Below the pieces are notes generated by a model. It did no database searches and was not told the origin of the DNA. It was given only the letters and a program-made list of their open reading frames with translations. A stretch of 64,000 nucleotides of DNA, taken from positions 40,299 through 104,298 of the forward strand of contig WJMJ01000123.1 of the NCBI GenBank assembly GCA_014728035.1. Direction: 5' to 3'. Made by a program: the position numbers and the translations under genes. Numbering within the stretch: the first letter of the stretch is position 1; each line of letters starts with the position of its first letter. The stretch is from Promethearchaeota archaeon (GTDB lineage Archaea; Asgardarchaeota; Thorarchaeia; Thorarchaeales; Thorarchaeaceae). Below, piece after piece: positions 1 to 29,262 of this stretch.

Positions 1-2
1 GT

Positions 3-986
3 ATAGACTTGGACAGCATTCCGTTGGAATGGATACAGGCAGCAAAGGACTCTGTGATTATTCATTATGCTCATACAAGTCACGGTAGCCAAATCAATAC
101 GGGTCTGAGCCGAATAGAGTCTATTAACTCGACATATGATACTAGTGTTGGAGTCTGTTCTCTTCCAGCAACGCTAGATTCACTCTGTATATTTGATGGA
201 CAGGATAATAATTCTGGAGACAACTACATCACTCCTGACGAGTACTGGGAATCCAATGCTGGGATTGATCTGACTCAAGGCACTTTGGATGAGAATCCCA
301 CAATTAATGTATCATTGTGGTCCTGGTGTACACAATTGAATTATTACTCAGAAGGGCAAGTCGAAAATTATCTCGAAGTCATGAGTCACTTCGAAGATGC
401 GAATCCAGATGTGACCTTTGTGTATATGACTTGTAATGCTCAGGCTGGTGGTTCGGAGGGCTATAACCGATGGATAAACAATAACCTCATTCGTAATTAT
501 TGCATCCAAAATGATAAAATTCTCTTTGACTTTGCAGATCTTGATTCTTGGAGTGATGGAGAACAGAATACTTACCAATATGATGATGGAGAAAGTATTC
601 ACACCATTCCTATTGAGCATACTGATTTCAATGGCAATGAAGCTGGTCATACAACTTACTCTAGTTGTGAACAGAAAGGCAAAGCATTCTGGTGGTTAGT
701 CGCAAGTATCGCTGGGTGGAACGCTCCTGATGTTACAACTACAACCACCACTGATACGAGTACAACTGAAACAACTACAACCACCACTGATACGAGTACA
801 ACTATGCCACCATCAAGTGGAACCACATCGACAACAACAACTGCTACGACAACTTCTACCGCAGAAACTACAACAACGGTAAACTGGGATGATATACCTC
901 TTAGAAATGAAGTATTCCTTGGAGCTGGATTGTTTTTGGCTGGGCTTGTTATATTGTCTGTTCTCTACGCACGACGAAATGGATAG
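3..986 (+). CDS. Cell-surface protein, 5'-truncated: SGNH-hydrolase-like domain, Thr/Ser-rich linker and C-terminal TM anchor
   Basis: The frame is open from the window edge. Motifs HTSHGSQ and LFDFADLDS...GHT, then a TTTTTDTST linker, a hydrophobic helix and a basic tail RRNG. Confidence 0.6.
   Translation: MDLDSIPLEWIQAAKDSVIIHYAHTSHGSQINTGLSRIESINSTYDTSVGVCSLPATLDSLCIFDGQDNNSGDNYITPDEYWESNAGIDLTQGTLDENPTINVSLWSWCTQLNYYSEGQVENYLEVMSHFEDANPDVTFVYMTCNAQAGGSEGYNRWINNNLIRNYCIQNDKILFDFADLDSWSDGEQNTYQYDDGESIHTIPIEHTDFNGNEAGHTTYSSCEQKGKAFWWLVASIAGWNAPDVTTTTTTDTSTTETTTTTTDTSTTMPPSSGTTSTTTTATTTSTAETTTTVNWDDIPLRNEVFLGAGLFLAGLVILSVLYARRNG
735..803 (+). repeat. 36-bp tandem duplication encoding the Thr-rich linker
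   Basis: acaactacaaccaccactgatacgagtacaact occurs at 735 and again at 771. Confidence 0.9.
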
Positions 987-987
987 C

Positions 988-1035
988 AAAGAAAAGAAAA
1001 AGACGGCGGGAGCTCAAACCCCGCCTTATCTTTTT
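988..1035. terminator. Bidirectional hairpin terminator candidate between convergent genes
   Basis: ggcggg/cccgcc stem flanked by an A-tract and a T-tract. Confidence 0.55.
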
Positions 1036-1043
1036 GTTAGAAT

Positions 1044-2288
1044 TTAGGCTTCATCATCTACTTCGATAGGTGATATGGAGTCAGTATGTCCATGTGCTTC
1101 TGGTAGGAAATAGGTGCCAATGCATGCTATGGAAATGAAGATTACCACTAGGATTCCTAGTCCCACAATCAATCCCCATGTATCATAGAAGAACTGTCCT
1201 GCTAATGGACCTATTATCATTCCTGAACCAAAGAAGATGCTGTAGACTCCCATTGTACTTCCTCGTGCATCAGCCTCGGAAATATCAGTTAGATACGCCA
1301 TTGCAGCTGGAGGAAAGCCTCCCGCAACAAATCCAAGTACAGGTAGAAGTGGCCAGACACTCCACAACTGTTCAAAATGTTCTGCATTTGCAACTAGAAG
1401 GAAAGCCAATACCCCTAATGCAATCAGTCCAGAAACAATGAATGGACGCCGTTTTCTCAAGTGGTCTGAGAGGTGTCCCATGATGATAATACCAAGAACC
1501 AGTGAACCTCCAAGCATTGCGAAGAGTATCAGTATATCGGTTGCCTCAAGACTGAAATGGGTTTCAAGAATGTGTTCAGCTTTAGAAATCACGAGCCCAT
1601 AAAGTGAGATGATTGGGACATAAACAGGAATCATTTTTTGAATTCTTTTGTCTTTTGCAACTTTGCTAAGTAATTCAATTATACTGGCTTCCTGTGTTGT
1701 TTCACATCTAGTCTCCTTGATGACAAGATATGCTATAACTCCAGCAATGGCACAAGCAATAGAAGCAGCGATGAGAATAAGATTCACATTGAATCCAAAC
1801 TGAATGAGAATCATTCCAAGTCCATATCCACCAGCAAGCCCCATCAAAGTTGATAGGTCATAATACCCCATCAATCTAGCTCTGTCGTCCTCTCCAGAAC
1901 AGTCTGCTATTATTGAGAGTGTAGTTGTTACCTTCGATGCTGCACCAATTCCAAAAAGTGCTGCAAATACAAATGCTAGAATAGCAAGTGGAGATATTGC
2001 AAATAGAAAAGCTGCAATTGCCGTGATGAATAGGCTTGCAACTAAGATTGGTTTTCTTCCTATTTTATCACTGTACGATCCGAAGAACGAAACTGTACTC
2101 AGTTCAGCCAATGGATAGATTGCTAATACCATTGAAGCTCCCCAACCTACAAGTTCGCCACCCATGTAGAAATTACTCTGAATGACTGCAATTGTAGCAT
2201 AGAAAGCAGCTCGCATGACCAAAGTCACAAAATATAATGTAATCAAAGTCCATTTGTTTTCGGAAGCTCTCAAGCCCATTATTTTCAC
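1044..2288 (-). CDS. MFS transporter
   Basis: About 12 TM segments. Motif A GSYSDKIGRKP and its repeat GHLSDHLRKRRP. Confidence 0.9.
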   Translation of the reverse strand: MKIMGLRASENKWTLITLYFVTLVMRAAFYATIAVIQSNFYMGGELVGWGASMVLAIYPLAELSTVSFFGSYSDKIGRKPILVASLFITAIAAFLFAISPLAILAFVFAALFGIGAASKVTTTLSIIADCSGEDDRARLMGYYDLSTLMGLAGGYGLGMILIQFGFNVNLILIAASIACAIAGVIAYLVIKETRCETTQEASIIELLSKVAKDKRIQKMIPVYVPIISLYGLVISKAEHILETHFSLEATDILILFAMLGGSLVLGIIIMGHLSDHLRKRRPFIVSGLIALGVLAFLLVANAEHFEQLWSVWPLLPVLGFVAGGFPPAAMAYLTDISEADARGSTMGVYSIFFGSGMIIGPLAGQFFYDTWGLIVGLGILVVIFISIACIGTYFLPEAHGHTDSISPIEVDDEA

Positions 2289-2348
2289 CTTGATGTTAGC
2301 ACTGACCTTACATTACGCTTTATAAGGCTCTCCCCATACCTGTTAGGT

Positions 2349-2690
2349 ATGTCAGACGGAACAACTGAATTTGTCTATCTTCAGCTCTATAGATTACGAA
2401 CTATGACGGACGAAGAGAAACACCAGTGGTTCAAAGATTGGGCTGAGATAAGAAAGAACCTCCCTAAAGGAGTGAAGATAGTGACTGAGGCTGGCAATGC
2501 ATTCGGAACTCCCTTTACTGGATTCACGGTTTATGAAGGCCCACTAGAAAAATTTGAAGAGTTAACAGAAATACTTCAGAAAAAATCAGGTCACATCGTT
2601 GAACGATCGATGACGATAATGGGAACGAAGGGATTCACTCTGCCAAGTGCTAGTATCGAGAAGATTCTTTCAACTCGGCCGATAGATTAG
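2349..2690 (+). CDS. Hypothetical small alpha/beta protein (GYD/dimeric-barrel-like), paralogue of 48187-48492
   Basis: Clean ORF. Shares the pattern YR..M...E....W......PK...IV......AxGT.xxGF.V.E with the paralogue. Confidence 0.55.
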   Translation: MSDGTTEFVYLQLYRLRTMTDEEKHQWFKDWAEIRKNLPKGVKIVTEAGNAFGTPFTGFTVYEGPLEKFEELTEILQKKSGHIVERSMTIMGTKGFTLPSASIEKILSTRPID

Positions 2691-2767
2691 ATTCTCGTTG
2701 CCGCAGTACCTCAGTTTTTTAACTATCTCTTTAAGGACCAGATACAGCAGAATTGAGAGTGCCATTC

Positions 2768-4531
2768 ATGACTGACGAGATTCCTAAAAAGACCGTTATT
2801 GTGCTGATAATCTCAGTTGTTGCTGGGTTGGTTTTGTATACCTATGCCCCTCCGTCAATTGAACCTGGTGCATATTCAGCAACACTTCACATCGAGTCAG
2901 AAGGGATTTCACTTCAGGATACATATTCTGTAGAATTTGCTGAAGGAATATCTTCAGAAGAACTCATGTTTTCATATAGTGGCACTTCTTCCAACATTAC
3001 TATAACGATAACTGAAAAGGTGAATATTGCTCCATCAAGTGAATTAGTAATTGTTGTTCATGTAATTGGTGATCCTCTTGACGCTGAGGACATTCATGTT
3101 ATCTTGGAAAATAATGATGGATTCTATCAAACTTTGCGACCCACAAAGCAAGATGGACAGACATTTACAATAGCATATCAGCCGCTTGTTAAATCGAATT
3201 ATGCAGTAATGATTCTTGGTGTAGTTGCCATTCTTTGGTTTTCAGAAGGAATAAGTTTGGTTGCAACATCAATACTGATACCAGTTATGATTGTGTTAGC
3301 AGATATCAGAACACCGAAAGAAGCTCTTTTGCCCTTTTTTGATCCTGCTGTAGCACTGATTTTTGGTGGCTTTCTGATTGGTCGAGCTCTTACGAAATAT
3401 GAATTAGATAAGCGACTTGCTTTGCTAATTCTGTCAAGAAGTGCTGGGTCTGGATCATCCCTGCTTCTGACTGTAATGGGTGTTACTGCTTTTCTCTCAA
3501 TGTGGATTAGTAATACAGCGTCGGCTGCAATAATGATCCCTATTGCGTTAGCAGTAATATCGAAGATTCGAAGTGATAATGTAAGAGACAAATATGGGAA
3601 GGCATTGGTACTTGGAGTTGCTTATTCTGCAACCTTGGGGGGTGTTGCCAGCTTGGTGGGATCGCCGCCGAACCCTCTAGCTGCCACTTACATCAAGTCA
3701 TTTCTTGGTATTGAATTCTCATTCGTTAGCTGGATACCCTTTGGCTTACCAGTAGTTCTCATCATGCTACCAATTATCTGGAGATATATCATATTCCGTT
3801 TCAAACTACCAAAAGACATCGAGGAGATGCGTGAGCTCAAACATATTTCTCTAAACGAGTATCTGCGTCTTGGTCCAATGACTAACCAGCAAAAAATTGT
3901 TGTTCTGGTATTTTCAAGTGTAATTGTACTATGGCTTACAGAACAATTACCCGATGTCGTGTCCAACTTGATAGGATGGTCTGGGCATGGAATTTCAAGT
4001 TCCATTGTTGCATTACTGGGTGGATTATCTCTATTGGTTCTTAAGTTGCTTGATGAGAAAGACGTATCATCAGAAATCAGCTGGTCATCACTATTGATTC
4101 TAGGTTCAGGGATTGCTTTGGGTGGTGCAATGATTGATACAGGACTTTCAACATTTTTAGCTTTTCAGATGGGAGGCCTTGGAGTATTGCCATCTTTGGC
4201 GGTTGTTGTCATTATTGGGATAATTGCGGTACTGGTTACCATGGTAGCATCCAATACTGGAGCTGCTGTCATCTTGATTCCAATCGCAATACCTCTTGCC
4301 ACTGGACTTGGTATCGATCCATTGCTCATCACGATGGTTATAGCTATAGCTGTATCGATGGACTTCGCACTACCAACAGGAACTCCTCCCTCAACAATTG
4401 CCTATAGCACAGGAAAACTAGAAATTCGTGAAATGATATCTACTGGATTGGTAGTAGATTTGATTTCAGTACTAGTAGTTACAATAATTGCTGTGTGGTT
4501 GTGGTCACTCTTTGGACTTGTAGTCTTATAG
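2768..4531 (+). CDS. DASS/SLC13 family Na+-coupled anion symporter
   Basis: SMWISNTASAA, SNTGAAVILIP and FALPTGTPPS motifs; many TM helices. Confidence 0.9.
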   Translation: MTDEIPKKTVIVLIISVVAGLVLYTYAPPSIEPGAYSATLHIESEGISLQDTYSVEFAEGISSEELMFSYSGTSSNITITITEKVNIAPSSELVIVVHVIGDPLDAEDIHVILENNDGFYQTLRPTKQDGQTFTIAYQPLVKSNYAVMILGVVAILWFSEGISLVATSILIPVMIVLADIRTPKEALLPFFDPAVALIFGGFLIGRALTKYELDKRLALLILSRSAGSGSSLLLTVMGVTAFLSMWISNTASAAIMIPIALAVISKIRSDNVRDKYGKALVLGVAYSATLGGVASLVGSPPNPLAATYIKSFLGIEFSFVSWIPFGLPVVLIMLPIIWRYIIFRFKLPKDIEEMRELKHISLNEYLRLGPMTNQQKIVVLVFSSVIVLWLTEQLPDVVSNLIGWSGHGISSSIVALLGGLSLLVLKLLDEKDVSSEISWSSLLILGSGIALGGAMIDTGLSTFLAFQMGGLGVLPSLAVVVIIGIIAVLVTMVASNTGAAVILIPIAIPLATGLGIDPLLITMVIAIAVSMDFALPTGTPPSTIAYSTGKLEIREMISTGLVVDLISVLVVTIIAVWLWSLFGLVVL

Positions 4532-4591
4532 TGTTGATTCACGACAGCTTTAAATCAAATAGTAAACCGAGTTAGACCGAGTTGAATAGGC

Positions 4592-5353
4592 ATGAATTGG
4601 ATAGCAAAGATAATTCACGGAAAAGCTGATGAATTTGCTCACGCTAGATTAGTGAAGTTCGGAATGGGTCAACACATTGGTCCACGTGCAGAATTGAGAA
4701 TCACATCTTCCAGAATTACTTTCAAAGTAGATATGGACCTTGAAAAAGCAATGCTCGAGACCTATCTAAGAACTGGACCTGAAGGGTCACATAAAGTAAA
4801 GGGTAGTATTATCACATATGAAGATAGAAGAGAGGAGTTTGCTGCTCTGAACATGCCTCTTGAATTCAAGAAGAAAAAGAAGAAGGGTGGTGCTTTCACA
4901 TTTCAAGCAAAATTCAATGAACAAGCACCAAAAGAGGATATTCATGCATTGCTCAAAATTGCTGACTCTGAGACCTTCTATCTTATGAATTTGAGTCCGA
5001 AGCCTGCGAAGCAGCCATGGAAGCTCACGACGAAATCTCGTCCACAAAAACCAATTGCTGAATTAGAAGATGCCAAAGCTCCTAACTTTTGCACTGGTGC
5101 ATTCGATAATACTGATGAAGTGAAGGAAACTCTTTTTGAGGAATTATTTCCTGATGCGAAGGATAAAGTCACAGAAGATGCAAAATCCATCAAGATTCTG
5201 AATATGCTACATATTGAGGAAATTGAGATTCCCAAAGATCCGAATATGTCATTTAAAGAGAAACGAAAGCAAGCTAAGAAACGTGGAAAGTTAGTTAGAA
5301 CTGTTGATATCGATGGGGAAGAGCATACTTTCGAATACGAGTTCTTTGTCTAA
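4592..5353 (+). CDS. Conserved archaeal hypothetical protein (basic)
   Basis: 253-aa ORF, Lys-rich, C-terminal AKKRGKLVRTVDIDG. Confidence 0.6.
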   Translation: MNWIAKIIHGKADEFAHARLVKFGMGQHIGPRAELRITSSRITFKVDMDLEKAMLETYLRTGPEGSHKVKGSIITYEDRREEFAALNMPLEFKKKKKKGGAFTFQAKFNEQAPKEDIHALLKIADSETFYLMNLSPKPAKQPWKLTTKSRPQKPIAELEDAKAPNFCTGAFDNTDEVKETLFEELFPDAKDKVTEDAKSIKILNMLHIEEIEIPKDPNMSFKEKRKQAKKRGKLVRTVDIDGEEHTFEYEFFV

Positions 5354-5432
5354 TGCAAAAGCTGAACGACCGTGATGTTTAAATTGACTAGTCATTGGGA
5401 GAATTAACTACCGGACAAAAGAGGAATCATAA

Positions 5433-5636
5433 ATGCTTCAGATTATTGTTGAAACTCTGTATATCTACTTTGCAGCAGCCTTCATCCTATTTGGGATGAT
5501 GGCCTTCGGATGGCTTATTATTCATGTTGAACACGGTCGTCATCTCTCTCTCCCAAGAGTAATAATGTCCGGTATCTTCGCAGCCATCTTCCTTGGTTTC
5601 GGTCTTCATTTCCTCCTCCTTTCATTCATATTGTAA
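5433..5636 (+). CDS. Small 2-TM membrane protein
   Basis: GAGGA ribosome-binding site upstream; two hydrophobic helices around IHVEHGRH. Confidence 0.65.
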   Translation: MLQIIVETLYIYFAAAFILFGMMAFGWLIIHVEHGRHLSLPRVIMSGIFAAIFLGFGLHFLLLSFIL

Positions 5637-5715
5637 TTTAGGATTCTCTCATTCTATCTATTATATGGATGATTTTTAGAAAGAGTACACACAATAAACA
5701 TATTTTATCATAATA

Positions 5716-5766
5716 GGATACTCAAGCATGACTCATACGAGTCAAATTCAGGATAGAGGAGTATCC
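5716..5766 (+). promoter_or_regulatory. Nested inverted repeats upstream of the 5768 operon
   Basis: tgactc-atac-gagtca (5729-5744) lies inside ggatactc...gagtatcc. TATA-like ttttatca at 5703. Confidence 0.35.
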
Positions 5767-5767
5767 A

Positions 5768-6955
5768 TTGCAAACTGATACAGACCTTGAGAAAATTGCA
5801 GTTTCGAGTAGAAAGCGACTCACTAGAGAATTTGCTGAAAAATACACGAATTTGCAGGAGCGTTCACGAAGAATTCCAATTTCTGATGTGAAACAGATAG
5901 CAGAAGATTTCTCATGTCCACTACAGATTGCAATGATTTCTTATTTGGTTAATCTTGATGGTATTATTTCACTTAAAGAGGCTATACTCTATCTGATGAC
6001 TGAATTGAATCGACGAGCCTCTGTTGGTGTAGAGGTGCCCAACATTCCTGGGAATATCATGGAGTTCGCTTTGCTGGAGGGGCGCTGGCTCGTTTATGTT
6101 TACGGAACTTTCATTCGTGATTTTGAGTTTAAGATGCGCGAATTAGCTAACCTTGAAGGGGCTATTGATGAGACCAATATATCCTTAGAAAAGGCAATAC
6201 ATGTCAATGCATCTAGAACAAAACTAGCTGAAGGATATCTTGCTCCAGTTGTTGAGGCATGGATTAAAGACCATCCTAATTCCAATAGTGAAAATGCATT
6301 GATGTTCTTGGGTCCTGCAATCACAAAATGGAAAATTGCCACACTAAAAGGACGCGTTCTTCACCTCCGTAGGCGTTGTCAAGCATTATTCAGGGTTCTA
6401 AGAAAAGCAATGGATGGACCATCAGAATCTGCAACTATTGATGTTTCATTGAAAAGAATCGACCAACTTATACAAGACTTGGATTCTGAATTGAATAGCA
6501 TGCCCATTCGCGCTCTCTCTCATCTTCTTTTACATATTGCACCGAAGCCTACTGGACGAGGTGACAAGTCCTCATTTGTTGAAGTAGGTGCTGGATCGAC
6601 AAGAGGTGGAAAAAGTGAGCCTGATATGGTATCGCCTTTTGACTTTCTAGAACGAGATGTGTATTTAGCAAAAAGGAGAACAAAGGAAGAACGGATGAAT
6701 TATCTCACAGAGAGAATTGACCGGGTTGTACGCGTTTTGCTATATCAGGGAACACCACTCATTAATTGTGTGATGATGTGTGTCAAAGAAATGAACGAAC
6801 GATTGAAAATAGCTAATCCGCCTCTTGAGGAATTGGAGGATAAGTTCGAACAAAAATTGAATGATTTACCATCCGATCAACGGAACGCATTAGCTGTAGA
6901 ACTAATTTATGATTATATCAATGAATATGTATACGAGGAAACGAAAGTTGATTGA
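5768..6955 (+). CDS. Hypothetical alpha-helical protein
   Basis: 395-aa ORF with GAGGAG RBS; no recognised family. Confidence 0.65.
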   Translation: MQTDTDLEKIAVSSRKRLTREFAEKYTNLQERSRRIPISDVKQIAEDFSCPLQIAMISYLVNLDGIISLKEAILYLMTELNRRASVGVEVPNIPGNIMEFALLEGRWLVYVYGTFIRDFEFKMRELANLEGAIDETNISLEKAIHVNASRTKLAEGYLAPVVEAWIKDHPNSNSENALMFLGPAITKWKIATLKGRVLHLRRRCQALFRVLRKAMDGPSESATIDVSLKRIDQLIQDLDSELNSMPIRALSHLLLHIAPKPTGRGDKSSFVEVGAGSTRGGKSEPDMVSPFDFLERDVYLAKRRTKEERMNYLTERIDRVVRVLLYQGTPLINCVMMCVKEMNERLKIANPPLEELEDKFEQKLNDLPSDQRNALAVELIYDYINEYVYEETKVD

Positions 6956-27182: not shown

Positions 27183-27229
27183 GATGGCATTGAGTCATTC
27201 TAATCAGTGCCATTAGTCATTCTTTTTTT
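27183..27229 (+). terminator. Hairpin + T-tract terminator candidate
   Basis: gatggcattga...tcagtgccatt then T7. Confidence 0.5.
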
Positions 27230-27294
27230 AAATCGATAATATTTATTAGCGATTAGCTATCTCTGACGCTGAATTTCTTTATCGAGGTGGCATA

Positions 27295-27855
27295 ATGGCT
27301 GACCTACCTTCAATTATCATAAAAACTAGAAATCTTCTCAGCATGCGGGGTTATACTGTTTCCGAGCTATTTGAGTATGAAAACAGATATGTTCTTTATC
27401 CCATCCGTGAAAAGGACGGTAGTACTTACAAACAAGTCGTCTGGATTTTCAAAGAACCACTAGTTGTTGGAATTGCCTTCGTAAAAGATTTGTATTATGA
27501 AATGCAAGAAAAAGATGCGATTAACGGGATGTTAGTTGGAGGTCTGAGATTTACACCCGCTGCGAAGAAGGGAGCTCGTGGACGTCGAGTGGAACTGATT
27601 CAAGGGAATTATTCCTCTTTCGATTTATTTGACCATCATCTTGTTCCCCGTCATCGTATTGCAGAAGATGATGAAATCAATCTTCTTCTTAACTTCTATG
27701 GAATTACAAGGTCTGAACTACCAAGGATTATCCGTGATGATCCAGCAGTCAAAGTTCTTGGAGCACGCCCTGGTCAGGTTATCCGAATAGAAAGAGATAG
27801 TCTGGTTGCGGGAATTACATATTATTATCGACTAGTAATTGACGGTAAAAGATAA
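27295..27855 (+). CDS. rpo5: RNA polymerase subunit Rpo5/RPB5 with eukaryote-type N-terminal jaw domain, copy 1
   Basis: C-terminal HHLVPRHRI...LPRIIRDDPAVK...GQVIRIERDS..AG..YYYRLV. N-terminal RGY.V and VG...MQE...TPAAKK. Confidence 0.88.
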   Translation: MADLPSIIIKTRNLLSMRGYTVSELFEYENRYVLYPIREKDGSTYKQVVWIFKEPLVVGIAFVKDLYYEMQEKDAINGMLVGGLRFTPAAKKGARGRRVELIQGNYSSFDLFDHHLVPRHRIAEDDEINLLLNFYGITRSELPRIIRDDPAVKVLGARPGQVIRIERDSLVAGITYYYRLVIDGKR

Positions 27856-27878
27856 CCAATCGTAACCATTCAAGAAAC

Positions 27879-27905
27879 CTTATAACCCCAATTCAGAATT
27901 GGGGT
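27879..27905 (+). promoter_or_regulatory. TATA-like box abutting a perfect 21-bp palindrome (candidate operator of rpo5 copy 2)
   Basis: cttataa at 27879, then accccaattc-a-gaattggggt at 27885-27905. Confidence 0.55.
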
Positions 27906-27926
27906 CTTGGCCCTGGTGTTGATAAT

Positions 27927-28490
27927 TTGGTTGAATTTCCGACTGTTGTAATGAAAACAAGATCTCTCCTCACTTTAAGAGGATATGAGGTTGATGAGTT
28001 ATTCGAATATGAAAATCGTTACGTGATGCATCCAACTCGAACCAACTCTGAAGGGATTACCATCAAGATGATTGTTTGGGTTCTAAAAGAACCAAAAGTA
28101 GTCGGAGTCGCAGTTGCAAGAGATATTCAACGTGATATGATTGAAGAGGATGCTACTCGTGGTATGATTGTGGGTGGTGCACGTTTTACTCCTGCTGCAA
28201 AGAAACACTCTAGGAAAAATGGTATAGAACTGGTAGAAGGAAACTATGCATCTTTTGATCTATTTGGGCATGAATTAGTTCCTGAACACACAATTGCTGA
28301 TTCTGATGAAGTTGATCTAGTACTAGACCATTATGGAATTGACAAACCACACTTACCAAGAATCAGGCGAGATGATCCTGCTGTTCGTGTGTTAGGAGCA
28401 AGAACTGGTCAAGTCATTCGAGTCGAACGTGATAGTGCTACGGCAGGTCGAACATACTATTATAGACTTGTAATCGATTCTAAACGATAG
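27927..28490 (+). CDS. rpo5: RNA polymerase subunit Rpo5/RPB5 with eukaryote-type N-terminal jaw domain, copy 2
   Basis: HELVPEHTI...LPRIRRDDPAVR...GQVIRVERDSATAGRTYYYRLV. Colinear paralogue of copy 1. Confidence 0.88.
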   Translation: MVEFPTVVMKTRSLLTLRGYEVDELFEYENRYVMHPTRTNSEGITIKMIVWVLKEPKVVGVAVARDIQRDMIEEDATRGMIVGGARFTPAAKKHSRKNGIELVEGNYASFDLFGHELVPEHTIADSDEVDLVLDHYGIDKPHLPRIRRDDPAVRVLGARTGQVIRVERDSATAGRTYYYRLVIDSKR

Positions 28491-28491
28491 T

Positions 28492-29262
28492 CTATATTAC
28501 AATAACTCCAAGAATTGTTGCTACATAGAACATCACAATCGTACAAATCATTGGTACTGTTACATTATCTGTACCTTTTGGACTGACTAATTCCACTAAT
28601 GTTGCTGTTACTGCACCCGTTAGCGCTAGAAGAATCATCTCAACAAACAGAATTTCTCCGCTGCTGACAAATACTTGATAATTTACAATTCCAAAGAACC
28701 AGAAAGCAATCAATGAACCTATGAATCCAAAGATGAAAAGGGCAGAGCATCCGTGAAGACTTCTTTTTGAGCCTTTTATCTCAATACAATGATTGACACC
28801 CCATTTCATTCCAATTGGTGCTGATAGACCATCACCTAACATCATGATATGAATTGCAGCTGCAGCAACGAAATACCAAGCATCATTTCCAGTGAAAGTA
28901 AAAATTGCAGTGAGAACTGTAATAGAAACTGCGTACCAGAAGGGGCCTCTAACAGAATCACTCTCTTCATCTTCTGATCTCGCCATTGCATGGAAAAACC
29001 TTTCAAACCTCTTTGAGCTTGCCATTCCCAACATAATTACAAAAGTTAGAGCAACAAGAGTTGCCACCCATGGATGGGGATAGTATGGAACGGTCCATAT
29101 TGCAGCACCTGCAAACAGATGCACGATCTTTCTGGTAAAGTCCGACCCCATATCTAATTTCCTTCGTGCAACATCAGCAACTGTCAAGACAATAACAGCG
29201 TATAATACTGCGATAAAATATACAACGATGTCTTCGAAAGTGATTAGTAATTCGACCTGCAT
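28492..29262 (-). CDS. CTP-dependent polyprenol (dolichol/phytol) kinase family protein
   Basis: TRKIVHL, GDGLSAPIG, KRSLHG, ELVSPKGTDNVTVP. Confidence 0.85.
   Translation of the reverse strand: MQVELLITFEDIVVYFIAVLYAVIVLTVADVARRKLDMGSDFTRKIVHLFAGAAIWTVPYYPHPWVATLVALTFVIMLGMASSKRFERFFHAMARSEDEESDSVRGPFWYAVSITVLTAIFTFTGNDAWYFVAAAAIHIMMLGDGLSAPIGMKWGVNHCIEIKGSKRSLHGCSALFIFGFIGSLIAFWFFGIVNYQVFVSSGEILFVEMILLALTGAVTATLVELVSPKGTDNVTVPMICTIVMFYVATILGVIVI

What the first reader, a model, noticed from the sequence alone, without database searches (positions are those of the whole stretch)
27295..28490. Two tandem full-length, eukaryote-type RPB5 genes
Seen: two paralogues of 186 and 187 aa, each with an intact Rpo5 C-terminal domain plus an N-terminal domain of about 110 aa. 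Established: typical archaeal Rpo5/RpoH is only the roughly 75-85-aa C-terminal domain and usually sits in the RNAP operon, whereas eukaryotic RPB5 carries the extra jaw domain. The N-termini match eukaryotic motifs recalled from memory: KT..LL..RGY.V versus KTIMQLCHDRGYLV, and PKVVGVAV..DI..DM.EE....G.IV....TPAAK versus PKVGIKTIK...MQEE....ALIV....TPSAK. No other RNAP genes are nearby. Inference: the two copies are interchangeable jaw subunits giving RNAP isoforms, analogous to the plant RPB5/NRPE5 paralogues.
Basis: partly seen in the sequence, partly recalled or inferred. Interest (0 to 1): 0.75.

Follow-up and report, generated by a model that had tools for sequence, protein, structure and literature searches.

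The report
Paired jaw-bearing RNA polymerase Rpo5 genes
A Thorarchaeote (Asgard archaeon) has two adjacent, old and well-kept genes for RNA polymerase subunit Rpo5, its only copies, each carrying a dead-nuclease "jaw" domain homologous to the jaw of eukaryotic RPB5, which the literature calls eukaryote-only, so its single polymerase may exist in two versions.

Summary
ORFs 27295-27855 (186 aa, ATG) and 27927-28490 (187 aa, TTG) are 61% identical. Each has a strong Rpb5_C domain and a ~105-aa N-domain.

The N-domain is homologous to the eukaryotic RPB5 jaw:
- A profile of the N-domain alone hits only eukaryotic RPB5 jaws among PDB sequences (E 2e-8).
- The AlphaFold model superposes on full-length RPB5 (TM 0.71-0.76).
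- It is a catalytically dead Mrr-type fold: the QxK motif is lost.

These two genes are the genome's only rpoH genes, and the rpoB-rpoA operon lacks one.

The pair is not strain-specific or decaying:
- Tandem pairs occur in 5 of 16 Thorarchaeota genera.
- Upstream and downstream copies form separate clades within each genus.
- A single old duplication is not rejected (p-AU 0.77).
- dN/dS is 0.01-0.2 for both copies.
- Each copy has its own conserved promoter.
- Every downstream copy starts at TTG or GTG.

The claim of two polymerase isoforms remains an inference. I found no expression data, and no consistent paralogue-specific residues except two K/R swaps.

Long Rpo5 is not special to this genome. 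It is widespread in Asgard (including Heimdall and Hodarchaeales) and in Bathyarchaeia, and absent from Loki- and Odin-like genomes. This scan had already noted it on other DNA (about 39 genomes, several with Thor tandem pairs). I found no paper describing it.

The parts
27235..27248 (+). Promoter-like element of copy 1 (GATAAT-ATTTATTA), a diverged form of the family-wide cTTGACAATnTTTATAT motif, 46 nt before the ATG
   Evidence: Read. The same motif lies 42-49 nt upstream of 26 of 27 upstream copies and 23 of 23 single-copy rpo5 genes in the family. Assigned by sequence only; no transcript data.
27284..27289 (+). Shine-Dalgarno-like GAGGTG, 5 nt before the ATG of copy 1
   Evidence: Read. 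A GGGTG-type element precedes nearly all orthologues.
27295..27855 (+). rpo5 copy 1 ('upstream type'), 186 aa, ATG start. N-terminal jaw about 27295-27606, Rpb5_C about 27622-27837.
   Evidence: ORF. PF01191 E 3.8e-23, Mrr_cat E 9e-4, NA-iREase1 E 1.3e-3. NF007129 85.5 bits. 77% identical to its orthologue in Thorarchaeota isolate BC. C-domain dN/dS 0.08; the whole-gene and N-domain ratios are undefined because dS is saturated.
27873..27885 (+). BRE/TATA-like element (agaaaCCTTATAA) of copy 2, 41 nt before the TTG
   Evidence: Read. A TATA-like hexamer 39-43 nt before the start is present in 26 of 27 downstream copies across five genera.
27885..27905 (.). 21-bp perfect palindrome (10-bp arms, 1-nt centre) between the TATA box and the expected transcription start of copy 2
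   Evidence: Read. 0 of 300 shuffles reach a 10-bp arm. The congener has a different 6-bp-arm inverted repeat at the same place, but only 3 of 27 spacers in the family beat shuffles. It is lineage-specific and its role is unknown.
27915..27918 (+). Shine-Dalgarno-like GGTG, 8 nt before the TTG of copy 2
27927..28490 (+). rpo5 copy 2 ('downstream type'), 187 aa, TTG start. N-terminal jaw about 27927-28241, Rpb5_C about 28257-28472.
   Evidence: ORF, with TTG as the first start codon after an in-frame stop. PF01191 E 1.5e-24, Mrr_cat E 3e-5. NF007129 90.9 bits. AlphaFold2 model with pLDDT 83.7. 95% identical to its orthologue in isolate BC, dN/dS 0.01.

Best explanation
Both genes encode working RNA polymerase subunit Rpo5 (RpoH) in the long, two-domain form.

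The C-terminal assembly domain docks on Rpo1 as in all archaeal and eukaryotic polymerases. The N-terminal domain is a catalytically dead Mrr-type PD-(D/E)XK fold, homologous to the jaw of eukaryotic RPB5. It most likely sits at the lower jaw next to downstream DNA, using the conserved T-P-A-A-K motif, which is the counterpart of the eukaryotic TPSA motif.

The pair arose by one old tandem duplication within Thorarchaeota, and the duplicated unit included the promoter. The upstream copy kept an ATG start. The downstream lineage uses TTG or GTG. Some genera later lost one copy.

The genome has one Rpo1, one Rpo2 and no other Rpo5. So the two proteins are most likely alternative occupants of the single Rpo5 site, giving two versions of one polymerase. 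Their ratio would be set by separate transcription and by unequal translation starts.

Shown here: homology, fold, loss of catalytic residues, gene history, purifying selection and promoter conservation.

Inferred: incorporation into RNAP, DNA contact, and any functional difference between the two versions.
For: Domains:
- PF01191 and the RpoH equivalog are found in both copies.

Jaw homology:
- phmmer aligns copy 2 residues 43-182 with human RPB5 67-209 at E 2e-19, better than the short archaeal Rpo5 chains.
- A profile of 35 N-domains alone hits only RPB5 jaws in the PDB (human, fly, Arabidopsis, three yeasts; E 2e-8 to 3e-3) and no nuclease.
- Against 1.84 billion representative proteins, eukaryotic RPB5 ranks 53rd (E 5e-11). 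That is ahead of intact Mrr nucleases, which appear from about rank 96 at E 1e-7.
- By Foldseek, the top 34 PDB hits are RPB5-type chains E (mostly cellular eukaryotic RPB5, plus two ASFV RPB5 homologues). Cellular RPB5 gives TM 0.71-0.76 over about 205 columns. Short archaeal Rpo5 gives TMq 0.35.

Dead nuclease:
- In the joint alignment, the Mrr residues Q and K of IIQCK are W and L in Thor, and the D of GGIDI is V.

Only rpo5 genes:
- The genome has two PF01191 matches and both are these genes. The rpoB-rpoA1 operon is headed by an SDR gene.

Age and retention:
- Tandem pairs about 650 bp apart occur in genera g1, g3, g11, g12 and g16.
- Upstream and downstream copies form separate starred clades within each genus.
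- Downstream copies plus TTG-start singles held as one clade are not rejected: p-AU 0.77, lnL 19.8 better than the quick free search.
- All 27 downstream copies start at TTG or GTG. 25 of 27 upstream copies start at ATG.
- K65/R65 and K154/R154 are shared across 4 of 5 genera.

Selection:
- dN/dS is 0.01-0.2 in both copies and both domains.

Own promoters:
- A TATA-like box lies 39-49 nt before nearly every copy.

Background:
- The RPB5 jaw and its TPSA motif contact downstream DNA (PMC6690254; PMC2675907).
Against: - No transcript, protein or structural data exist for either copy.
- Pfam's own Rpb5_N model (PF03871) does not hit either protein. Only 1 of 35 Asgard N-domains hits it, and below the cut-off.
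- The N-domain is about 35 residues shorter than the eukaryotic jaw. The region between the first helix and the core strands is missing.
- Almost no residues separate the two paralogue types consistently. That argues against a strong structural specialisation.
- No T-rich terminator follows copy 1, so co-transcription is not excluded.
- The deep part of the gene tree is poorly resolved. The clade test was defined after seeing a first tree.
Confidence: 0.55

Rival explanations
1. Regulatory or dosage subfunctionalisation only. The two proteins are biochemically equivalent Rpo5 subunits. The duplicate is kept because the two promoters and the ATG versus TTG/GTG starts together supply the right amount of subunit under different conditions. 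There are no functionally distinct polymerases.
For: - Only two conservative K/R positions differ consistently between the types, and the differences are spread evenly along the protein.
- What is conserved between the types is expression architecture: own promoter and start-codon class.
- Several genera do well with one copy of either type.
Against: - The paralogues are only about 61% identical, yet each is held under strong purifying selection (dN/dS 0.01-0.2). That is more divergence than simple dosage back-up usually tolerates.
- In genus g1 the two copies evolve at clearly different rates: 77% versus 95% identity to the congener.
Confidence: 0.3
2. One paralogue is the polymerase subunit. 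The other acts off the polymerase, for example as a free DNA- or factor-binding protein, an assembly helper, or a competitor that titrates Rpo1 or a transcription factor.
For: - The faster-evolving upstream copy in this genus could reflect a shifted role.
- Stand-alone N-domain-like proteins without Rpb5_C exist in metagenomes, so the jaw fold can be used on its own.
Against: - Both copies keep a full-scoring assembly domain (PF01191 and the RpoH equivalog above cut-off).
- C-domain dN/dS is as low as in the other copy.
- Genera that retain a single copy retain either type, so each type can evidently serve as the sole Rpo5.
Confidence: 0.1
3. The N-terminal domain is an active Mrr-type restriction nuclease fused to RpoH, giving a defence or DNA-cleavage function on the polymerase.
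For: All 35 Asgard N-domains hit Pfam Mrr_cat (best E 2.6e-12; copy 2 24.5 bits against a cut-off of 21).
Against: - The (Q/E)xK motif is replaced in every Rpo5/RPB5 form. The catalytic D is also lost in Thor.
- 33 of 35 members also hit the 'inactive REase' family.
- The nearest relatives by sequence and by fold are RPB5 jaws, not nucleases.
Confidence: 0.03
4. Assembly or binning artefact: two strains or contaminant contigs collapsed into a false tandem.
For: The genome bin has 8.5% estimated contamination.
Against: - Both genes lie 71 bp apart inside a contig longer than 100 kb.
- The same arrangement is found in more than 40 independent Thorarchaeota assemblies, including a closed chromosome.
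Confidence: 0.01

Closest known systems
Eukaryotic RPB5 / RPABC1 (ABC27, POLR2E), shared subunit of Pol I, II and III; PDB 1dzf, 5xog_E, 6exv_E, 7vba_E
   Same: - Two-domain architecture: PD-(D/E)XK-fold jaw plus Rpb5_C assembly domain.
- Whole-chain superposition at TM 0.71-0.76 and 23-30% identity.
- Shared motifs: RGY helix, EPKVG strand, TP(S/A)AK.
- Nuclease catalytic residues lost.
   Different: - The jaw is about 105 aa rather than about 140 aa. It lacks the eukaryotic insertion after the first helix.
- It scores better with Pfam Mrr_cat than with Rpb5_N.
- It serves one polymerase, not three.
- Here it is duplicated in tandem.
Canonical short archaeal Rpo5/RpoH (Sulfolobus, Thermococcus, Pyrococcus, Methanocaldococcus; PDB 2waq_H, 4qiw_H, 8cro_H, 1hmj)
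   Same: Orthologous assembly domain, 37-51% identical and TMt 0.8. Same expected docking on Rpo1.
   Different: - Those proteins are 77-84 aa with no jaw, and their gene heads the rpoH-rpoB-rpoA operon (PMC10833476).
- Here the gene is long, duplicated and detached from the operon.
- In Sulfolobales the site corresponding to the jaw is taken by a separate subunit, Rpo13 (PMC2675907).
Long-form Rpo5 of other Asgard lineages (Heimdallarchaeota, Hodarchaeales and others) and of Bathyarchaeia
   Same: Same two-domain architecture at about 175-195 aa. Annotated simply as 'RNA polymerase subunit H'.
   Different: - Those are single-copy, except for one independent non-tandem duplication in G128.
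- Many keep the Mrr-like D (IDILA) and share with eukaryotes the V-R-I-P / F-F-P strand with a one-residue deletion.
Paralogous RPB5 systems in eukaryotes: plant NRPB5/NRPD5/NRPE5 and trypanosomatid RPB5/RPB5z (PDB 7eu0_E, 8hyj_E; review PMC6690254)
   Same: Diverged RPB5 paralogues coexist in one organism and could define polymerase variants.
   Different: - In plants and trypanosomes the paralogues serve different catalytic cores. This genome has a single Rpo1/Rpo2 set.
- The duplications are independent events.
Mrr_cat (PF04471) type IV restriction endonuclease catalytic domain and NA-iREase1 (PF22722)
   Same: Clear sequence relationship along the whole N-domain: helix 1, the VG(V) strand, R(D/E)L, the GILIT-like strand, FT..A, IELI(D/E)G.
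   Different: - The catalytic D...(Q/E)xK is not kept.
- The domain is fused to a polymerase subunit.
- Its nearest relatives are RPB5 jaws.

Membership tests
Rpo5/RpoH/Rpb5 assembly-domain family (PF01191; NCBIfam NF007129) | C-terminal Rpb5_C domain scoring above the curated cut-offs | tested here: met
   PF01191 gives 81.5 and 86 bits against a cut-off of 23.5. NF007129 gives 85.5 and 90.9 bits against 83.
Rpo5/RpoH/Rpb5 assembly-domain family (PF01191; NCBIfam NF007129) | Is a stoichiometric subunit of RNA polymerase bound to Rpo1 | not testable with these tools
   Inferred from these being the only PF01191 genes in a 97.9%-complete genome and from purifying selection. No complex prediction was run.
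Two-domain, eukaryote-type RPB5 (jaw + assembly domain) | N-terminal jaw with PD-(D/E)XK fold, packed against the assembly domain as in RPB5 | tested here: met
   AlphaFold2 N-domain pLDDT is about 90. Full-length Foldseek matches to RPB5 chains give TM 0.71-0.76 over about 205 columns. This rests on a predicted model only.
Two-domain, eukaryote-type RPB5 (jaw + assembly domain) | Sequence homology of the N-domain itself to the eukaryotic jaw | tested here: met
   The N-domain-only profile hits only RPB5 jaws in the PDB, at E 2e-8 to 3e-3. Eukaryotic RPB5 scores E 5e-11 in the 1.84-billion-protein search.
Two-domain, eukaryote-type RPB5 (jaw + assembly domain) | Match to Pfam RNA_pol_Rpb5_N (PF03871) above the gathering score | tested here: not met
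   No hit at E<=1 for either window protein or anywhere in the genome. The best Asgard hit is 23.5 bits against a cut-off of 27 (L073).
Two-domain, eukaryote-type RPB5 (jaw + assembly domain) | Full-size jaw (about 140 aa) including the helical insertion after helix 1 | tested here: not met
   Human residues about 37-58 have no counterpart. The N-domain is about 105 aa.
Mrr_cat restriction endonucleases (PF04471) | HMM match above the gathering score | tested here: inconclusive
   Copy 2 scores 24.5 bits and copy 1 scores 19.8 bits against a cut-off of 21. All 35 Asgard N-domains match at E<=0.1.
Mrr_cat restriction endonucleases (PF04471) | Catalytic D ... (Q/E)xK residues | tested here: not met
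   In the joint alignment with 12 intact Mrr proteins, D becomes V, Q becomes W and K becomes L in both window proteins.
Polymerase-specific RPB5 paralogue systems (plant NRPE5 type) | Paralogues assigned to different catalytic cores | tested here: not met
   The genome has one rpoB locus (one Rpb2_6 match) and one rpoA locus (two Rpb1_5 matches, both on contig C25).
Polymerase-specific RPB5 paralogue systems (plant NRPE5 type) | Both paralogues retained under selection and separately expressed | tested here: inconclusive
   Selection and separate conserved promoters are shown. Expression was not testable: no sequencing run was listed.

The most novel reading that the evidence does not exclude
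Thorarchaeota run a genuine two-isoform polymerase. The two jaw paralogues are swapped on a single catalytic core and pair with different members of the expanded TFB set (six TFB genes in this genome) to serve different promoter classes or conditions. This would be a prokaryotic forerunner of the eukaryotic habit of building specialised polymerases by exchanging peripheral subunits. Together with the wide archaeal spread of the jaw, it would mean that the RPB5 jaw and its use as a regulatory handle predate eukaryotes.
Probability: 0.15. Interest if true: 0.85.

Novelty: new variant of a known kind. Interest (0 to 1): 0.66.

Why it matters
Structural papers and reviews state that the RPB5 jaw is eukaryote-specific and that archaeal RpoH lacks it (PMC2675907, PMC6690254). 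The PD-(D/E)XK census lists Rpb5_N as 'Eukaryota' only (PMC3424549).

Here the jaw is present, clearly homologous, and sits between Mrr nucleases and eukaryotic RPB5 in sequence. It occurs in many Asgard lineages, including Hodarchaeales, and in Bathyarchaeia. That moves the origin of this polymerase module, which in eukaryotes contacts downstream DNA and binds regulators such as TFIIB, back into archaea.

The conserved tandem pair adds a second point. An archaeon with one catalytic core keeps two diverged, separately promoted jaw subunits. This makes the question of whether subunit swapping to diversify a polymerase predates eukaryotes directly testable by proteomics and reconstitution.

Tried and rejected
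- **Expression:** The look-up of sequencing runs on 27200-28500 listed no run, and no RNA holder was listed.
- **The search for related loci with the N-domain alignment A2** failed because no stretch was conserved enough. It was repeated with A1.
- **The listing of cluster members with 10 proteins** timed out. It was repeated with 5.
- **Paralogue-specific residues:** none at the strict threshold. At the relaxed threshold only positions 4, 16, 65 and 154, of which only 65 and 154 are consistent K/R swaps.
- **Placing eukaryotes among archaeal long forms:** eukaryotes form one long-branch clade and the archaeal side is a polytomy, so no sister group can be named.
- **AU test for 'all upstream copies are one clade':** did not finish in time.
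- **Split-gene idea** (jaw encoded separately in short-form lineages): rejected. There was no N-domain match in four of five Loki-, Odin- and other short-form genomes, and one marginal generic hit in the fifth.
- **Active-nuclease reading:** rejected.
- **Palindrome as a general operator of the pair:** not supported. It is not conserved outside genus g1.
- **Literature:** six full-text searches and a search of the supplements of Eme et al. 2023 found no description of a jaw-bearing archaeal Rpo5. Subscription-only papers and unindexed supplementary tables could not be excluded.
Full report
**What is there**

Two co-oriented ORFs lie 71 bp apart: 27295-27855 (186 aa, ATG) and 27927-28490 (187 aa, TTG). 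They are 61% identical over their full length. Both carry Rpb5_C (PF01191, E 4e-23 and 1.5e-24) and pass the NCBIfam RpoH equivalog cut-off.

The first ~105 residues of each give only weak Pfam hits to Mrr_cat (E 9e-4 and 3e-5). Neither hits RNA_pol_Rpb5_N.

The flanking genes are on the opposite strand: an EamA transporter and a membrane protein. Nothing within about 3 kb is transcription-related.

**The organism and its other RNAP genes**

The window lies on contig C94 of a 4.33-Mb genome that is 97.9% complete with 8.5% contamination. Record titles of close relatives identify the family as Thorarchaeota. The nearest genome is 'Thorarchaeota archaeon isolate BC'.

The genome has exactly two PF01191 matches, and they are these two genes. 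It has a single rpoB (one match). The two Rpb1_5 matches both lie on contig C25, at one rpoA locus.

The rpoB-rpoA1 operon on contig C82 is preceded by a short-chain dehydrogenase gene, not by rpoH. In other archaea rpoH heads that cluster (PMC10833476). So the tandem pair is the only source of subunit H in this organism.

**Is the N-domain the RPB5 jaw? Four independent tests say yes**

1. Single-sequence phmmer against all PDB sequences aligns copy 2 residues 43-182 in one stretch with human RPB5 67-209 (E 2e-19). The alignment runs through the EPKVG strand and the TPSAK motif. Full-length eukaryotic RPB5 scores above the 77-84-aa archaeal Rpo5 chains.

2. I built a profile from the N-domains alone: 35 sequences from this window, 10 other Thorarchaeota genera and 16 other Asgard families (A2). 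It hits only RPB5 jaw domains in the PDB (human, Drosophila, Arabidopsis NRPB5A, S. pombe, S. cerevisiae, Komagataella), at E 2e-8 to 3e-3. It hits no nuclease.

3. The same profile was run against 1.84 billion representative proteins and gave 1133 hits. Nearly all of the top ~50 combine the N-domain with Rpb5_C. A metazoan RPB5 ranks 53rd (E 5e-11). Intact Mrr nucleases with DGGIDI...IIQCK motifs appear only from about rank 96 (E about 1e-7).

4. An AlphaFold2 model of copy 2 has mean pLDDT 83.7, about 90 in the N-domain, and a low-confidence hinge at 107-118. It superposes over both domains on RPB5 chains from Pol I, II and III at TM 0.71-0.76 over about 205 columns, with 23-30% identity. 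Short archaeal Rpo5 covers only the C-domain (TMq 0.35). The first true nuclease, EndoMS, comes at E 8e-5.

**Relation to Mrr nucleases**

All 35 Asgard N-domains also hit Pfam Mrr_cat (best E 2.6e-12). 33 hit the 'inactive restriction endonuclease' family NA-iREase1. One, from a Heimdall-like genome, hits Rpb5_N itself below the cut-off.

A joint alignment of Mrr nucleases, Asgard and Bathyarchaeia long forms and eukaryotic RPB5 shows a continuum along the whole domain:

| Group | D-motif strand | QxK strand |
|---|---|---|
| Mrr nucleases | GGIDI | IIQCK |
| Heimdall-, Hod- and Bathyarchaeia-type Rpo5 | I-D-I-L-A (acidic residue often kept) | I-V-R-I-P |
| Thorarchaeota | Y-V-M-H-P | V-W-V-L-K-E-P |
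| Eukaryotes | L-T-V-L-V | F-V-F-F-P-E-E-P |

Every Rpo5/RPB5 form has lost the (Q/E)xK. The two window proteins have lost the D as well. The domain is therefore a dead nuclease fold.

That RPB5's jaw has a PD-(D/E)XK fold is already known (PMC3424549). New here is an archaeal form that links it by plain sequence to Mrr_cat.

**How common is the long form?**

Scanning 400 Asgard genomes with PF01191 gave matches in 369.

- Long open frames (about 185-245 aa) occur in Thorarchaeota and in at least 16 other families. I confirmed the N-domain in all 19 loci that I fetched from them and kept in the alignments. A twentieth, the very divergent f25 locus L071, was left out.
- Cluster names identify long forms from Heimdallarchaeota and Hodarchaeales.
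- The largest family (f22), a family holding 4.4- and 6.0-Mb single-contig genomes (Loki-like by size; this is my inference), and a family of 1.3-1.4-Mb genomes (Odin-like by size) have the short 81-100-aa form.
- Five such genomes contain no separate jaw gene.
- The long form is also widespread in Bathyarchaeia: 266 proteins of 175-195 aa with PF01191 plus PF04471 or PF22722. So it is not Asgard-specific.

**History of the pair**

Within the family (86 genomes), tandem pairs about 650 bp apart occur in genera g1, g3, g11, g12 and g16. The other 11 genera have single copies.

In a tree of 97 genes, the upstream and downstream copies form separate, strongly supported clades within each genus. 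The order among genera is unresolved.

Independent characters point to one old duplication:
- All 27 downstream copies start at TTG or GTG, and 25 of 27 upstream copies start at ATG.
- Single-copy genera split the same way: ATG in g2, g5, g8, g10 and g13; TTG or GTG in g4, g6, g9, g14 and g15.
- K65/R65 and K154/R154 separate the types in 4 of 5 genera.

Holding all downstream copies plus the TTG-start singles as one clade is not rejected (p-AU 0.77). It gives a likelihood 19.8 units better than the quick free search. The group was defined by gene position and start codon, but after I had seen a first tree.

One unrelated Asgard genome (G128) has two non-tandem copies, which is an independent duplication.

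**Are both copies kept by selection?**

Pairwise dN/dS between orthologues is 0.01-0.2 for both copies, in both the jaw and the assembly domain, in all four genera tested.

In this genus the upstream copy evolves faster: 77% against 95% identity to isolate BC. It is still constrained: its C-domain dN/dS is 0.08, although dS is saturated over the whole gene.

**Expression architecture (sequence only)**

A conserved promoter-like motif, cTTGACAATnTTTATAT or a variant, lies 40-49 nt upstream of 23 of 23 single genes, 26 of 27 upstream copies and 26 of 27 downstream copies. It is followed by a GGGTG-type Shine-Dalgarno. So the duplicated unit included the promoter, and each gene looks like its own transcription unit.

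In the window:
- Copy 1 has GATAATATTTATTA at 27235-27248 and GAGGTG at 27284-27289.
- Copy 2 has CCTTATAA at 27878-27885 and GGTG at 27915-27918.
- No T-run follows copy 1, so read-through is possible.

The 21-bp palindrome at 27885-27905 is statistically exceptional here (0 of 300 shuffles). The congener has a different inverted repeat at the same spot. Only 3 of 27 spacers in the family beat shuffles. It is at most a genus-specific feature.

**What the paralogues probably do**

With one catalytic core and one Rpo5 site, two retained Rpo5 proteins most simply give two polymerase versions.

Almost no residues are consistently type-specific. What is conserved between the types is how they are expressed. 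That leaves two live readings:
- distinct isoforms, possibly pairing with some of the six TFB paralogues in this genome (eukaryotic RPB5 is reported to contact TFIIB, PMC6690254 and PMC2675907);
- equivalent proteins kept for expression control.

I could not obtain expression data.

**Novelty**

The papers I could search describe the jaw as eukaryote-specific and archaeal RpoH as lacking it. A 2026 survey of archaeal small RNAP subunits modelled Thorarchaeota and Bathyarchaeota Rpo5 but does not discuss an N-domain. I found no paper reporting the long form or the pair.

This scan has noted the long form before in about 39 other genomes, and the tandem pair in several other Thorarchaeia. Those are unreviewed AI notes, and my results agree with them independently.

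What this report adds:
- the family-wide map of the pair;
- the single-duplication test;
- the start-codon dichotomy;
- the promoter conservation;
- the selection estimates;
- the Mrr-to-RPB5 continuum alignment.

Noticed in passing
window 27885-27905: Perfect 21-bp palindrome directly after the TATA box of copy 2. It is exceptional here (0 of 300 shuffles). The congener (L034) has a different 6-bp-arm inverted repeat at the same place, but it is not conserved in other genera (3 of 27 spacers beat shuffles).
   Followed up: partly
G000 contigs C151 (58398-58949, 75049-75591, 76292-76834), C45 (104353-104907, 105403-105960), C44 (165660-166208): Six TFB (TFIIB-cyclin) paralogues in this genome, some adjacent to each other. 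They are possible partners for the two Rpo5 forms, but no link was tested.
   Followed up: no
L139 (G000:C82) 1-6000: The rpoB-rpoA1 operon has no rpoH at its head. A short-chain dehydrogenase gene lies upstream instead.
   Followed up: yes
P0134 (481 aa), P0139 (349 aa), P0158 (561 aa), P0159 (436 aa): Metagenomic proteins with one to three jaw-like N-domain stretches (three in P0134 and P0139, two in P0159, one in P0158), mostly followed by Rpb5_C: multi-jaw or extended Rpo5 forms of unknown origin.
   Followed up: no
P0140, P0145, P0154, P0163, P0164, P0167, P0170: Small proteins (about 80-185 aa) made of a jaw-like domain without a detectable Rpb5_C domain. They may be fragments or free-standing jaw homologues.
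   Followed up: no
P0235 (189 aa), P0233 (179 aa), P0259, P0249: Short two-domain proteins with a very eukaryote-like strand (IVFFPETPKIGIK) but without the eukaryotic jaw insertion. They group with eukaryotic RPB5 in the tree. They are known only from unnamed assembled contigs and could be viral or protist.
   Followed up: partly
L062 and L063 (G128:C1, about 150 kb and 254 kb): An unrelated Asgard genome (family f19, 5.8 Mb) has two long rpo5 genes about 104 kb apart that are each other's closest relatives. This is an independent, non-tandem duplication.
   Followed up: partly
P0271 (91 aa) in the cluster of P0176 (189 aa): A Bathyarchaeia 'RNA polymerase subunit H' is annotated at 91 aa inside a 90%-identity cluster of 189-191-aa proteins. 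This may be a start-codon call that cuts off the jaw, so public annotation could under-report the long form.
   Followed up: no
G000:C153:13902-14051: The single Rpo6 (Rpb6) match lies in a 220-aa open frame, far longer than the roughly 55-100 aa usual for archaeal Rpo6. This fits the extended Thorarchaeota Rpo6 described in PMC13257274.
   Followed up: no
L024, L025, L028, L031 (genus g11): Within a genus where most species have the pair, four species have one copy: three keep the upstream type and one keeps the downstream type. Either type can apparently be lost.
   Followed up: partly
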